From assembly GCF_054482595.1 (NCBI RefSeq), contig NZ_CM137008.1: a DNA stretch of 64,000 nucleotides; one strand, written 5' to 3'. This document shows positions 45,501 to 51,500 of this stretch, piece after piece. Within the stretch, counting starts at the first letter, position 1; every line of letters begins with the position of its first letter. Made by a program: the position numbers.

Positions 45501-48500
45501 AAAATAATACTCTGTTGAAACTGGATGAGGGAAGCAATACGGCCTCCGGTTTAGGTATAGAAATACTGGACGGAAATATGCGTCCGGTGAAACTGAATGA
45601 CCTTCATGCCGGGATGCAGTGGATCCCACTGGTACCAGAACAGAACAATATTTTGCCTTACTCCGCTCGTCTGAAGTCAACTCAGAAGTCCGTCAATCCG
45701 GGACTGGTGAGGGCTTCGGCAACCTTTACCCTTGAATTTCAATAATCAGAGTCAGATATGAAAAGACTTCACAAGAGGTTCCTGTTAGCTACGTTTTGCG
45801 CGTTATTCACAGCAACTCTCCAGGCCGCCGATGTCACTATCACTGTTAATGGTCGGGTAGTCGCTAAACCCTGCACTATTCAAACCAAAGAAGCTAACGT
45901 TAATCTCGGGGATCTTTATACGCGCAATCTGCAACAACCTGGTTCTGCATCTGGCTGGCACAATATTACTTTGTCATTAACCGATTGTCCGGCTGAAACA
46001 AGTGCAGTGACGGCAATCGTGACAGGTTCAACTGACAATACGGGTTATTACAAAAATGAAGGTACTGCCGAAAATATTCAGATAGAGCTTAGGGATGACC
46101 AGGATGCGACGTTAAAAAATGGCGATAGCAAAACGGTTATTGTTGATGAGATCACTCGTAATGCACAGTTTCCACTTAAGGCAAGAGCTATCACGGTGAA
46201 TGGAAACGCAAGCCAGGGAACGATCGAGGCGCTAATCAATGTGATCTACACCTGGCAATAACGTCGATTCGATTTTCTTAGCCTTCTTTTTAAATCAATT
46301 TTTTAACCTTAGGATATATCATGGGTAAAACAATCAGTATAAAGGTCCTGTTCGGTATTTATCTTCTATTAATGGCAGGCAAAGTTTTTGCCTTCAGTTG
46401 TAATGTCGATGGCGGGTCAAGTATTGGAGCTGGTACAACCTCTGTTTATGTTAATCTCGACCCTGTAATACAGCCGGGCCAGAATCTGGTTGTAGACTTG
46501 TCTCAGCATATAAGTTGCTGGAATGATTACGGCGGCTGGTACGACACTGATCATATAAACCTGGTACAAGGCTCAGCTTTCGCAGGCTCTCTACAGTCAT
46601 ATAAAGGATCGCTGTACTGGAATAATGTGACCTACCCCTTCCCGTTGACGACAAATACCAACGTATTGGATATTGGTGATAAGACACCGATGCCATTACC
46701 GTTAAAACTCTATATTACCCCAGTCGGGGCGGCCGGTGGAGTTGTCATAAAAGCCGGGGAAGTTATTGCCCGTATTCATATGTATAAAATTGCCACGTTA
46801 GGAAGCGGAAATCCGCGTAATTTTACGTGGAATATTATTTCAAATAACAGTGTTGTTATGCCAACAGGCGGCTGCACTGTTGATAGTCGTAATGTCACCG
46901 TGAATCTCCCGGACTTTCCTGGAAGCGCAGAAATCCCCCTTGGCGTATATTGCTCAAGCGAACAAAAGCTCTCATTTTATCTTTCGGGTGCCACCACTGA
47001 CAGTGCCCGACAAGTGTTTGCTAACACAGCACCTGATGCAACAAAAGCATCGGGAGTGGGTGTCTCTCTGATGCGTAATGGAAAAATACTGGCTACGGGA
47101 GAAAATATCTCCCTGGGGACAGTAAATAAAAGCAAAGTACCTCTGGGTTTAAGCGCAACCTATGGACAAACAGGAAACAAGGTTTCAGCCGGAACCGTCC
47201 AGTCAGTCATTGGTGTCACTTTTATCTATGAATAATTGTGATTTTGACATTGGTCTATGCGCTCCATTCACGAAAATTGCGCGGATAATTATTTTGTGAA
47301 GGCTATTATCCTACACCTGTAAGAAAATCCGCGCACAATTGAAGCCAGAGTCTTATTTTTTATATTAAAAAATATGTTAATTTAAACACTATGAGAGATG
47401 ATGCTTACCTTATCGTATTTAATCTATTGTTTAACGATAATAGATTAAAAATAGAAAGAGAGTAGTCCCCTACTCTTATATATCCATGTTGGCGATAATC
47501 CCTTTGTATGTACTGTGCATCATCGCTATTACAAATCCTAATAATTCATTTCCACACAGGATAAGTAGATGAAGATAAAAATTGAATCCTACCAGGGAGC
47601 TGCCGGTGGTTGGGGTGCTGTTAAATCCGTAGCGAATGCAGTACGTAAGCAGATGGATATACGCCAGGATGTTATTGCCATGTTTGACATGAATAAGCCA
47701 GAGGGCTTTGACTGTCCGGGTTGTGCATGGCCAGATCCTAAGCACAGTGCGTCATTCGACATTTGTGAAAACGGCGCAAAAGCAATCGCCTGGGAAGTCA
47801 CGGATAAGCAGGTAAACGCCTCTTTCTTTGCTGAGAATACGGTTCAATCATTACTTACCTGGGGAGACCACGAGCTTGAGGCTGCGGGGCGACTCACTCA
47901 GCCTTTGAAATATGATGCCGTCAGCGACTGTTACAAGCCATTAAGCTGGCAACAAGCTTTCGATGAAATTGGCGCACGCCTTCAAAGCTATAGTGATCCC
48001 AATCAGGTTGAATTCTATACTTCGGGCCGCACTTCCAATGAGGCTGCCTTTCTTTATCAGCTTTTTGCCCGTGAATACGGGAGCAATAACTTTCCCGACT
48101 GCTCCAACATGTGCCATGAACCGACAAGCGTGGGTTTGGCAGCGAGTATCGGTGTAGGTAAAGGGACCGTGTTGCTGGAAGACTTTGAGAAGTGCGATTT
48201 AGTCATTTGCATTGGGCATAACCCTGGTACAAACCACCCTCGCATGCTGACTTCGTTGCGCGCTTTAGTGAAACGGGGAGCGAAAATGATCGCCATCAAT
48301 CCTCTACAGGAACGTGGCCTGGAGCGATTTACCGCACCGCAAAACCCGTTTGAAATGCTGACGAACTCTGAGACTCAGTTGGCCAGTGCCTACTACAACG
48401 TGCGCATTGGTGGCGATATGGCGTTGCTCAAGGGGATGATGCGCCTGTTAATTGAGCGCGATGATGCTGCAAGTGCCGCAGGTCGGCCCTCATTGCTGGA

Positions 48501-51500
48501 TGACGAATTTATTCAAACGCATACCGTCGGCTTTGACGAGCTACGCCGTGACGTTCTCAATTCCGAGTGGAAAGATATCGAACGTATTTCTGGACTAAGT
48601 CAGACACAAATCGCCGAACTGGCTGATGCATATGCCGCTGCCGAACGCACCATTATCTGTTACGGAATGGGGATCACTCAGCACGAACATGGTACCCAGA
48701 ATGTACAGCAACTGGTCAATCTGCTGTTGATGAAAGGTAACATTGGCAAGCCTGGTGCGGGTATCTGCCCACTACGTGGCCACTCTAATGTACAGGGCGA
48801 CCGAACCGTCGGTATCACCGAGAAACCGTCTGCAGAGTTTCTGGCTCGCCTGGGTGAGCGCTATGGCTTCACTCCACCTCAAGCACCTGGACATGCTGCA
48901 ATTGCCAGCATGCAAGCAATATGTTCAGGGCAGGCTCGAGCATTGATCTGCATGGGGGGCAACTTTGCACTGGCAATGCCAGATCGGGAAGCGAGCGCTG
49001 TACCGTTAACGCAATTAGATCTGGCGGTACACGTAGCCACTAAGCTTAACCGCTCTCATCTGCTGACCGCACGGCATAGCTATATTCTGCCGGTTCTGGG
49101 ACGTAGCGAGATTGACATGCAAAAAAGCGGTGCGCAGGCGGTAACCGTTGAGGATTCAATGTCGATGATTCATGCCTCGCGTGGCGTGTTAAAACCCGCC
49201 GGTGTAATGCTGAAATCAGAGTGTGCAGTGGTCGCGGGAATCGCGCAGGCAGCACTACCCCAGAGCGTGGTAGCCTGGGAGTATCTGGTGGAAGATTATG
49301 ATCGCATTCGCAATGACATTGAAGCTGTGCTGCCAGAGTTCGCCGATTATAACCAGCGCATCCGACATCCTGGTGGTTTTCACCTGATAAACGCTGCTGC
49401 TGAAAGGCGCTGGATGACTCAGTCAGGTAAGGCTAATTTCATTACCAGCAAAGGGCTGTTAGAAGATCCCTCTTCAGCGTTTAACAGTAAGCTGGTCATG
49501 GCGACAGTACGCAGCCACGATCAGTACAACACGACGATTTATGGTATGGATGATCGCTATCGAGGGGTATTCGGTCAACGAGATGTGGTCTTTATGAGTG
49601 CTAAACAAGCTAAAATTTGCCGTGTAAAAAACGGCGAAAGAGTTAATCTTATTGCGCTTACGCCAGACGGTAAGCGCAGCTCACGCCGCATGGATAGATT
49701 AAAAGTGGTCATTTACCCTATGGCTGACCGCTCACTGGTGACCTATTTTCCAGAATCGAATCACATGCTAACACTTGATAACCACGATCCATTAAGTGGC
49801 ATTCCTGGCTATAAAAGTATTCCGGTTGAATTAGAACCATCAAATTAATGCCTCTTCTCATTTCTTCTGCTGTCATCCGCACAGCAGAAGAATACCTCAT
49901 TGACTATTATCGCGCAATTTGCTCACATGGATTAAATTAAACTACATACTATAAGATATAAACTTCTGCCTACAGCTGTAAGAAACTCCGCTCAGTACTG
50001 AAGTACCAGTCCTATTTCCTCTTTTCTCAAGCCTGTTATATTAAGCATACTGATTAACGATTTTCAACGTTATCCGCTAAATAAACATATTTGAAATGCA
50101 TGCGACCACAGTGAAAAACAAAATCACGCAAAGAGACAACTATAAAGAAATCATGTCTGTAATTGTGGTTGTCTTATTACTGACCCTTACGTTGATAGCC
50201 ATTTTTTCGGCAATTGATCAGCTGGGTATTTCAGAAATGGGTCGCATTGCAAGAGATCTTACACATTTCATTATCAATAGTTTGCAAGACTGAAAATAAA
50301 CAGCGAATTATAAATATGAAATGTTAAAAAAGTATCGATAAAACTTTATTGTTTTAAGGAGATAAAATGTCGCTCGTTTGTTCTGTTATATTTGTTCATC
50401 ATGCTTTCAACGCTAACATTTTAGATAAAGATTACGCCTTCTCTGACGGCGAGATCCTGATGGTAGATAACGCTGTTCGTACACATTTTGAACCTTATGA
50501 GCGGCATTTTAAAGAAATCGGATTTAATGAAAATACCATTAAAAAATATCTACAATGCACTAACATCCAGACAGTGACGGTGCCTGTTCCTGCGAAGTTT
50601 TTACGTGCTTCAAATGTACCGACTGGATTGCTTAATGAAATGATTGCTTATCTCAACTCGGAAGAACGCAATCATCATAATTTTTCAGAACTTTTGCTTT
50701 TTTCTTGCCTGTCTATTTTTGCCGCATGCAAAGGTTTCATTACACTATTAACTAACGGTGTGCTATCCGTTTCCGGGAAAGTGAGAAATATTGTCAACAT
50801 GAAGCTGGCGCACCCATGGAAGCTGAAAGATATTTGTGACTGCCTGTACATCAGTGAAAGCCTGTTGAAGAAAAAACTAAAGCAAGAGCAAACGACATTC
50901 TCACAGATTCTATTAGATGCCAGAATGCAGCACGCAAAAAATTTGATACGCGTAGAAGGTTCAGTCAATAAAATTGCCGAACAATGTGGTTATGCCAGTA
51001 CATCTTATTTTATTTATGCGTTCCGCAAACATTTCGGCAACAGTCCGAAGAGAGTTTCTAAGGAGTACCGTTGTCAAAGGCACACCGGTATGAACACGGA
51101 CAACACGATGAGTGCTTTAGCTATTTGATTATTTGCTAACGGGTAGTCAACCACACACGCTACGTAAGAATTAAATGGGGCAGCCATTCCTTGCCCCGCG
51201 TTGTTTTTAGGCGATATATTTATTGAAATAAATAAGTGACATTCATCACATATTTATGCATTTGCATAACCTGTTGCATGATTATTTATGATCTCAATTC
51301 GGCATTTTGTCAGTAAAATACAATAATTTATTAAATATCAATAGATTAGTTGTTTATCGGCGAGAAATTACTTAGTAGAACAGAAAGTAATGTCAACGCT
51401 TTATGGACTGTTATTTCCCTTTTTTTAGCTAAATCTGCTATCTCTTTATGTGACTAACTTCACTTACATCCACTTATTTCTCTTCGTAAAATTACTTTGG

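What the first reader, a model, noticed from the sequence alone, without database searches (positions are those of the whole stretch)
47308..49984. Paralogous EvgA-type boxes upstream of ydeP and of safA-ydeO
Two 18-bp elements, ATCCTACA-CC-TGTAAGAA (47308-47325) and TGCCTACA-GC-TGTAAGAA (49967-49984), share identical downstream flanks (AAA-A/C-TCCGC) and match the inverted-repeat EvgA consensus as I recall it. They mark the two acid-resistance promoters of this region as co-regulated by EvgS/EvgA, and the extended flank identity suggests a longer recognition element than the core 18-mer.
Basis: partly seen in the sequence, partly recalled or inferred. Interest (0 to 1): 0.4.

Follow-up and report, generated by a model that had tools for sequence, protein, structure and literature searches.

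The report
Known EvgA operator boxes, ydeP and safA
The two 18-base palindromes are the already-described binding sites through which the acid-sensing regulator EvgA switches on the E. coli acid-resistance genes ydeP and safA-ydeO; their shared flanks show that the two promoters are copies of one ~100-bp module, not that EvgA recognises a longer site.

Summary
The window is E. coli chromosome, in the order ydeQ, ydeP, safA, ydeO.

Against TTCYTACA-N2-TGTRAGAA, these are the only two sites in 64 kb with one mismatch or fewer (0 expected). A weight matrix built only from boxes upstream of other EvgA targets (emrK, frc, yfdX, yegR) ranks them first and second at 22.2 and 21.0 bits. The next site scores 10.7, and the best null score was 18.6.

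Reviews I could read state that EvgA binds the ydeP and safA-ydeO promoters directly. The core interpretation is therefore correct and already known.

The "longer recognition element" idea is not supported in general, because no other EvgA promoter carries TCCGC. Instead, ydeP and safA match at 43 of 70 ungapped bases after the box (null 19.2 ± 3.7), so the whole promoter modules are homologous.

All six EvgA promoters keep a fixed register: CA at +9/+10, TC at +26/+27, T at +31 and a -10-like hexamer at +53/54. A published ydeP leader 5' end puts the box at -83 to -66, upstream of an extended -10.

A BvgA-like secondary EvgA site 22 bp downstream is only weakly suggested.

The parts
47308..47325 (+). 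EvgA box of the ydeP promoter, ATCCTACA-cc-TGTAAGAA. It lies at about -83 to -66 relative to the leader 5' end at 47391, centre about -74.5.
   Evidence: 22.2 bits, rank 1 in the window. The half-sites CCTACA and TGTAAGAA are invariant in 10 E. coli alleles; variation is confined to box position 2 and the central dinucleotide.
47326..47350 (+). Spacer between the box and the -35 region that carries the shared flank: TCCGC 47328-47332, regulon-wide invariant CA 47334-47335, and TGAAG 47340-47344. It contains a weak EvgA-like 18-mer at 47330-47347, 22 bp downstream of the primary box.
   Evidence: fixed-register invariants; score -2.4 bits, p = 0.017.
47351..47357 (+). TCTTATT, the ydeP copy of an element (T+26, C+27, T+31 invariant) found at the same offset from the box in all six EvgA promoters. 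It lies at about -40 to -34, at the -35 region.
47375..47383 (+). Extended -10 element TGtTAATTT of the ydeP promoter.
   Evidence: Sequence. It ends 8 nt upstream of the leader 5' end 47391. It is conserved in the divergent Escherichia locus L014. A -10-like hexamer sits at +53/54 in the other five EvgA promoters as well.
47391..47391 (+). Probable ydeP transcription start (an A, 178 nt upstream of the ATG).
   Evidence: PMC11210196 defines the ydeP 5' leader as -178 to +10. Its EMSA forward primer begins ATGAGAGATGATGCTTAACTTATCG, which starts at window 47391. This is indirect evidence, because the paper does not call this position a mapped start site.
47569..49848 (+). ydeP coding sequence (759 aa), acid-resistance putative oxidoreductase.
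49862..49892 (+). Strong hairpin directly after the ydeP stop codon, lying between ydeP and the safA promoter. It has no T-run.
   Evidence: dG -17.5 kcal/mol, z -4.3. The stem is conserved in L014.
49967..49984 (+). EvgA box of the safA-ydeO promoter, TGCCTACA-gc-TGTAAGAA.
   Evidence: 21.0 bits, rank 2. The half-sites are invariant in 10 alleles; variation is confined to box position 1 and the spacer. It is conserved in L014 as CGCCTACAgtTGTAAGAA.
49985..50009 (+). Shared flank of the safA promoter: TCCGC 49987-49991, CA 49993-49994, TGAAG 49999-50003. It contains a weak EvgA-like 18-mer at 49989-50006.
   Evidence: score -4.3 bits, p = 0.031.
50010..50016 (+). TCCTATT, the safA copy of the fixed-offset element.
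50034..50042 (+). Extended -10 element TGtTATATT of the safA-ydeO promoter. By homology with ydeP, the start is predicted at about 50049-50050.
   Evidence: Sequence and ungapped homology with ydeP. The start site is an inference.
50096..50293 (+). safA (65 aa), the connector between EvgS/EvgA and PhoQ/PhoP.
50367..51128 (+). ydeO (253 aa), an AraC-family acid-response regulator co-transcribed with safA.
   Evidence: PMC9496106.

Best explanation
Each 18-mer is the primary operator for a dimer of phosphorylated EvgA, the NarL/FixJ-family response regulator of the acid-sensing EvgS/EvgA system. One serves the ydeP promoter and the other the safA-ydeO promoter. Each box lies about 52 bp upstream of an extended -10 element (TGtTAATTT or TGtTATATT) with no recognisable -35. 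This places the ydeP box at about -83 to -66, centre about -74.5. EvgA~P bound there recruits or stabilises sigma-70 RNA polymerase, so both transcription units switch on together at mildly acidic pH. The identical flanks exist because the two promoters are homologous ~100-bp modules (box, spacer, core promoter and first ~15 transcribed bases) that arose by duplication. They are not a general extension of the EvgA recognition sequence. Shown here: sequence, statistics, regulon-wide motif sharing, population and cross-lineage conservation, and promoter homology. Taken from papers: direct EvgA regulation. Inferred: the start sites, the activation mechanism and the duplication.
For: The sequences are exact. 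They are the only two <=1-mismatch matches in 64 kb, with 0 expected. The locus is identified as ydeQ-ydeP-safA-ydeO of E. coli. The same motif lies upstream of emrK, frc, yfdX (two copies) and yegR in K-12: 7 matches in 17 kb against 0.5 expected. A PWM built only from those sites ranks the two boxes first and second, at 22.2 and 21.0 bits, with the next site at 10.7 and null maxima of 12.7 +/- 1.8. [quoted passage not shown] In 10 divergent E. coli alleles the half-sites are invariant, and variation falls only in the central NN and the outermost one or two bases. In an 85%-identical Escherichia lineage the sequence upstream of each box is scrambled with indels, while the stretch from the box to +34 is 88-92% conserved. 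ydeP and safA share 43 of 70 ungapped bases after the box, against 19.2 +/- 3.7 expected. All six EvgA promoters share five invariant columns at a fixed offset, against 0.2 expected, and a -10-like hexamer at +53/54. The ydeP leader 5' end used in PMC11210196 maps to 47391, 8 nt after TGtTAATTT.
Against: The consensus string was recalled from memory (Masuda & Church 2002/2003; Itou et al. 2009). Those primary papers and their footprints could not be read here. The 'independent' training sites were located with that same recalled pattern. The ydeP start site is indirect, being a probe 5' end rather than a stated mapping, and the safA start is inferred by homology. evgAS lies outside the window. 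I showed it only at species level (5398 of 5426 genomes) and did not confirm it for this strain. The duplication is inferred from similarity alone. Convergence under shared constraints cannot be formally excluded.
Confidence: 0.9

Rival explanations
1. One reading: the conserved flank is itself bound by EvgA. A second, low-affinity EvgA dimer site lies 22 bp (two helical turns) downstream of the primary box and fills the gap down to the -35 region. This would mirror BvgA, which nucleates at a strong site and spreads in 22-bp steps to abut the -35.
For: The best downstream PWM score in both ydeP and safA falls exactly at offset +22, at -2.4 and -4.3 bits (about the 99th percentile; p = 0.017 and 0.031). 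With the box centred near -74.5, a second dimer would be centred near -52.5 and would end at about -44, next to the -35 region. BvgA, an EvgA homologue, uses this geometry (PMC7250471). Forward half-site-like 8-mers recur at +3 and +25 in all six promoters, 20 and 42 bp from the primary left half (z = 4.3 and 4.7).
Against: The other four promoters show nothing at +21/22. Fisher-combined p over independent promoters is 0.09-0.16. ydeP and safA are paralogues, so together they count as one observation. TCCGC and TGAAG are absent from emrK, frc, yfdX and yegR. One E. coli allele (E04) carries two substitutions in the putative right half, TTGAAG to TTAACG. The half-site z-scores restate the same invariant columns, and part of them (T+31, T+32) fits the first bases of a -35 hexamer.
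Confidence: 0.2
2. The flank specific to ydeP and safA is the operator of another regulator shared by just these two promoters, for example negative feedback by YdeO, or PhoP or H-NS.
For: Papers report that YdeO represses its own expression and indirectly represses ydeP (PMC11210196), and that PhoP lowers safA promoter activity (bioRxiv 10.64898/2026.05.06.723403). TGAAG(T)-N9-ATTTCC in safA loosely resembles an everted pair of YdeO-box hexamers (ATTTCA; PMC4222967).
Against: YdeO ChIP-chip found seven sites, and none is at ydeP or safA (PMC4222967). The effect on ydeP is described as indirect. PhoP repression is reported only for safA. The hexamer match is poor in ydeP (ATTTTT). The similarity extends well beyond any single operator, at 43 of 70 bases.
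Confidence: 0.08
3. The two palindromes are chance or unrelated sequence features and do not bind EvgA.
Against: Zero matches are expected by chance. The scores are about 10 bits above every other site in the window and above all 200 null maxima. The motif recurs at four other EvgA-regulated promoters. The half-sites are conserved across alleles and lineages. Papers state direct binding.
Confidence: 0.01

Closest known systems
EvgA boxes of the E. coli EvgA regulon (emrK-evgA intergenic region, frc, yfdX, yegR; consensus TTCYTACA-N2-TGTRAGAA as I recall it from Masuda & Church 2002/2003 and Itou et al. 2009)
   Same: The same 18-bp inverted repeat, with the same orientation bias: an imperfect promoter-distal half and a near-perfect promoter-proximal TGTAAGAA. 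The register to downstream promoter elements is also the same. The two boxes studied here are themselves members of this published set.
   Different: Only ydeP and safA share the TCCGC...TGAAG flank and about 60% identity over 70 bp after the box. The window strain has ATCC... where K-12 has AGCC... in the ydeP box.
BvgA binding sites of Bordetella promoters (Pfha primary site TAAGAAATTTCCTA; dimers every 22 bp down to the -35)
   Same: The regulators are homologous: EvgS/EvgA was named for its similarity to BvgS/BvgA (PMC9496106). The half-site core TTCCTA/TAAGAA is shared (PMC4314077; PMC7250471). Both have a strong upstream primary site, with room for exactly one further 22-bp dimer before the -35.
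   Different: The half-sites are arranged the other way round. In EvgA the TTCYTA hexamers are outermost and 6 bp apart, whereas in BvgA it is TAAGAA-N2-TTCCTA. Occupancy of secondary sites is demonstrated for BvgA but is only weakly suggested here.
NarL 7-2-7 heptamer pairs (NarL/FixJ family; from my own knowledge, not checked here)
   Same: An inverted repeat with a 2-bp central spacer, bound by a dimer of a NarL-family helix-turn-helix output domain.
   Different: The half-site sequence is different (TACYYMT), as are the regulon and the signal.

Membership tests
EvgA box (operator of the EvgA response regulator) | An 18-bp inverted repeat matching TTCYTACA-N2-TGTRAGAA | tested here: met
   One mismatch each. 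These are the only such sites in 64 kb, with 0 expected. The consensus string itself was recalled from memory.
EvgA box (operator of the EvgA response regulator) | The motif is shared with other promoters of the EvgA regulon and scores above background with a matrix built from them | tested here: met
   Boxes were found upstream of emrK, frc, yfdX (two) and yegR in K-12. The PWM from those sites scores the two boxes at 22.2 and 21.0 bits, against a next-best 10.7 and a null maximum of 18.6.
EvgA box (operator of the EvgA response regulator) | Lies in the promoter region of a gene whose transcription is directly EvgA-dependent | tested here: met
   The boxes are 243 bp upstream of the ydeP ATG and 111 bp upstream of the safA ATG. 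Direct regulation or binding is stated in PMC8174306, PMC9496106 and PMC8147483.
EvgA box (operator of the EvgA response regulator) | Physical protection by EvgA~P (EMSA or DNase I footprint) at these exact bases | not testable with these tools
   The primary footprint papers (Itou et al. 2009; Masuda & Church 2003) are not held. Only review-level statements of promoter binding were available.
EvgA box (operator of the EvgA response regulator) | The cognate regulator genes evgAS are present in the same genome | tested here: inconclusive
   evgA and its upstream region are present in 5398 of 5426 complete E. coli genomes. It lies outside the window, and I did not confirm it for the strain that matches the window.
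BvgA-type multi-dimer activator array | A high-affinity primary inverted repeat furthest upstream | tested here: met
   The box sits at about -83 to -66, given the ydeP leader start at 47391.
BvgA-type multi-dimer activator array | Further dimer sites at 22-bp centre-to-centre spacing reaching the -35 | tested here: inconclusive
   The offset +22 scores -2.4 and -4.3 bits in ydeP and safA (p = 0.017 and 0.031). The other four promoters show nothing there, and the combined p is 0.09-0.16.
BvgA-type multi-dimer activator array | Half-sites arranged as an abutting inverted heptad (TAAGAAA|TTTCCTA) | tested here: not met
   The EvgA box has the opposite arrangement, TTCYTA-N6-TARGAA (compared with PMC7250471).
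Activator-dependent sigma-70 promoter with extended -10 | A TGn plus -10 hexamer correctly placed before the start site, with a poor -35 | tested here: met
   In ydeP, TGtTAATTT (47375-47383) ends 8 nt before 47391. In safA the homologous element is TGtTATATT (50034-50042). There is no TTGACA-like hexamer 16-18 bp upstream of either. The start sites are indirect or inferred.

The most novel reading that the evidence does not exclude
EvgA-dependent promoters may share a BvgA-like phased architecture. From the primary box (centre about -74.5), same-orientation half-site-like elements recur at +20 and +42 bp, at about -63 to -56 and -41 to -34. EvgA~P would then oligomerise along one face of the helix down to a non-canonical -35 region.
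Probability: 0.15. Interest if true: 0.4.

Novelty: already known. Interest (0 to 1): 0.12.

Why it matters
These boxes are the entry point of the EvgS/EvgA acid-resistance cascade. One path runs EvgA to YdeO to GadE, another from SafA to PhoQ/PhoP, and the third is YdeP itself. Confirming them adds no new biology. The modest additions from this work are listed below.

- The ydeP and safA promoters are homologous ~100-bp modules.
- All six direct EvgA promoters keep a strict box-to-core-promoter register.
- Whether EvgA spreads downstream as BvgA does is now a testable question.

Tried and rejected
- **Primary papers.** I tried Masuda & Church 2002 (PMC151933), Ma et al. 2004 (PMC523220) and Eguchi et al. 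2007 (PMC2141842, and a wrong id, PMC2141855). None is held. No paper in the library prints the EvgA consensus.
- **The tool's sigma-70 hit for ydeP.** TTGAAG (47339) with a 16-bp spacer and TATATT (47366) is rejected as the main promoter. It predicts a start near 47373, 18 nt upstream of the published leader 5' end. Its -10 also loses the critical A2 in the divergent lineage.
- **My first reading of TCYTATT as the -10.** I had placed the fixed-offset TCYTATT (+26 to +32) as the -10, with the box at -58 to -41. I abandoned this once the leader start at 47391 was found. That element lies at the -35 region instead.
- **YdeO-box reading of the flank.** Rejected, because YdeO ChIP-chip lists no site at ydeP or safA.
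- **Cross-species footprinting.** An exact-pattern scan of species-representative genomes returned only one divergent Escherichia, two E. coli-contaminated MAG contigs and one chance hit in Desulfosporosinus. The distribution outside E. coli therefore stays unresolved.
- **Rfam scan of 47200-50400.** Nothing was found.
- **gadE.** No box with <=4 mismatches lies in the K-12 hdeD-gadE intergenic region, although gadE is listed as EvgA-bound.
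Full report
**Observation**

Window 47308-47325 reads ATCCTACACCTGTAAGAA and 49967-49984 reads TGCCTACAGCTGTAAGAA. The next bases are AATCCGCG and ACTCCGCT.

The region is 100% identical to E. coli O157:H16 strain Santai and is present in 5394 of 5426 complete E. coli genomes. Annotation gives ydeQ (46321-47235), ydeP (47569-49848), safA (50096-50293) and ydeO (50367-51128), all on the + strand of the window. The boxes lie 243 bp upstream of the ydeP ATG and 111 bp upstream of the safA ATG.

**Is it more than chance, and is it the EvgA motif?**

I recalled the consensus TTCYTACA-N2-TGTRAGAA from Masuda & Church and Itou et al.; no paper I could read prints it. With that pattern, the only sites in 64 kb with one mismatch or fewer are these two, against zero in 100 shuffles. 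Nothing else appears even at three mismatches.

To avoid relying on memory alone, I fetched the K-12 regions of other reported direct EvgA targets. The same palindrome lies upstream of four of them:

- emrK: ATCCTACAggCGTAAGAA.
- frc: TTCTTACAgtTGTAAGAA, a perfect match.
- yfdX: TTCCTACAatTGTAAGAC, plus a weaker proximal TAACTACAacTGTAAGAT.
- yegR: TTCCTACTtaTGTAGGAA.

The evgAS neighbourhood gave 7 matches in 17 kb, against 0.5 expected.

A symmetrised weight matrix built only from those five sites ranks the two window boxes first and second, at 22.2 and 21.0 bits. The third-best site scores 10.7. Null maxima per 64 kb were 12.7 ± 1.8, with a largest value of 18.6. One caveat applies: the training sites were located with the recalled pattern, so the independent evidence is their placement at EvgA-regulated promoters.

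**What papers say**

- PMC9496106 states that EvgA binds the promoter of the safA-ydeO operon.
- PMC4283999 notes that an EvgA binding site is found in all genes known to be directly regulated by EvgA.

The primary papers with the footprints were not available. The core interpretation is thus correct and already known.

**Conservation**

I aligned ten E. coli alleles chosen from the most divergent intergenic variants. The half-sites CCTACA and TGTAAGAA never vary at either promoter. Variation falls only in the central dinucleotide (CC/CT/TC at ydeP; GC/GT at safA) and in the outermost one or two bases of the promoter-distal half. K-12 has AGCC where the window has ATCC.

An Escherichia lineage only 84.7% identical across the locus (L014) gives a sharper contrast. 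Sequence upstream of each box is scrambled with indels. The stretch from the box to +34 is 88-92% identical, with boxes ATCCTACGccTGTAAGAA and CGCCTACAgtTGTAAGAA.

**The flank**

None of the other EvgA boxes is followed by TCCGC or TGAAG, so the flank is not a general extension of the EvgA recognition sequence.

Instead, the ydeP and safA regions align without gaps for about 70-80 bp after the box. They share 43 of 70 identities, against 19.2 ± 3.7 (maximum 36) for all other registers.

**A regulon-wide register**

I anchored all six promoters at the box. Five columns are invariant: C+9, A+10, T+26, C+27 and T+31. Only 0.2 are expected when the sequences are re-registered (P < 5e-5). With one member of each paralogous pair removed, P is 0.017 and 5e-5. 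All six also carry a -10-like hexamer starting at +53 or +54:

- ydeP: TGtTAATTT.
- safA: TGtTATATT.
- emrK: TAAATT.
- frc: TATTCT.
- yfdX: TATGAT.
- yegR: TATTAT.

PMC11210196 defines the ydeP 5' leader as -178 to +10 from the start codon. Its T7 template primer begins ATGAGAGATGATGCTTAACTTATCG, which starts at window 47391, 8 nt after the TAATTT hexamer. Taking that as the start site, the ydeP box spans -83 to -66 (centre -74.5). The invariant CA lies at -57/-56, and TCTTATT at -40 to -34 over a -35 region with no TTGACA-like hexamer. By homology, the safA start is predicted at about 50049-50050.

I first read TCYTATT as the -10, and the tool proposed TTGAAG-16-TATATT. Both readings are rejected because they predict starts 18-25 nt too far upstream.

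**Does EvgA read more than 18 bp?**

BvgA, a homologue of EvgA, binds a strong upstream inverted heptad (TAAGAAATTTCCTA). It then adds head-to-head dimers every 22 bp until the last one abuts the -35 (PMC7250471; PMC4314077).

With the EvgA box centred at -74.5, exactly one more dimer would fit before the -35. The best downstream weight-matrix score in both ydeP and safA is at exactly +22, at -2.4 and -4.3 bits (p = 0.017 and 0.031). Half-site-like 8-mers in the orientation of the distal half recur at +3 and +25 in all six promoters (z = 4.3 and 4.7).

Four points weigh against this:

- The other four promoters show nothing at +21/22, and the combined p over independent promoters is 0.09-0.16.
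- ydeP and safA are not independent of each other.
- One natural allele carries two substitutions in the putative site.
- The EvgA half-site arrangement is the reverse of BvgA's.

I rate this reading at about 0.15-0.2.

**Other readings**

A YdeO or PhoP operator in the flank is unlikely. YdeO ChIP-chip found no site here, and the PhoP effect is reported only for safA. Rfam finds no RNA family in 47200-50400.

**Verdict**

The elements are the known EvgA operators of ydeP and safA-ydeO. The "longer recognition element" is better explained by promoter paralogy together with a fixed spacing between the box and the core promoter. Novelty: already known. Interest is low.

Noticed in passing
window 49862-49892 (and L014 about 3080-3110, minus strand): A 12-bp-stem hairpin lies immediately after the ydeP stop codon (dG -17.5 kcal/mol, z -4.3) with no T-run. 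In the divergent Escherichia lineage the stem is identical, but the 7-nt loop (ACGGATG) is the reverse complement of the window loop (CATCCGC) apart from one base. The loop has therefore flipped.
   Followed up: partly
window 47458-47477: A small hairpin lies in the ydeP 5' leader (dG -9.4 kcal/mol, z -3.1). It is invariant in 10 E. coli alleles. The ~178-nt leader as a whole is well conserved even in the 85%-identical lineage, and no Rfam family matches it.
   Followed up: partly
window about 47420 (alignment A2, columns 186-190): A 5-bp indel polymorphism (ATACC or ATACT) occurs in the ydeP leader in about half of the sampled E. coli alleles.
   Followed up: no
L002 14501-14556 and 13507-13524 (K-12 yfdX and frc promoters): The yfdX promoter carries two EvgA boxes 38 bp apart. 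The proximal yfdX box and the frc box are followed by the same CTCTCTGATT at identical offsets (+23 to +32), which suggests a second pair of paralogous EvgA promoters.
   Followed up: partly
L005 3569-4366 (K-12 hdeD-gadE intergenic region): No EvgA-box match with <=4 mismatches lies upstream of gadE, although a review lists gadE among EvgA-bound promoters. Binding there must use a much weaker or different site.
   Followed up: no
L015 2845-2866; L016; L017: The extended box pattern has one isolated exact match in a Desulfosporosinus contig with no other similarity, which is at chance level. Two contigs labelled Candidatus Nanosynbacter MAG and uncultured bacterium are 98% identical to E. coli ydeP-safA, which suggests contamination or misbinning.
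   Followed up: partly
window 50038-50067, minus strand: A consensus scan finds an antisense sigma-70-like promoter (TTGAAA-18-TAATAT) overlapping the safA -10 and leader region. At 9 of 12 matches it is no better than shuffled sequence.
   Followed up: no
whole window: The context carries several stress loci: dgcZ, mgtS, marRAB, the lsr operon, hipBA, the ydeQRS fimbrial cluster, ydeP-safA-ydeO, ydeNM, yddAB-pqqL, and gadBC at the 3' end. gadB maps to about 62008-63408 by coordinate arithmetic.
   Followed up: no
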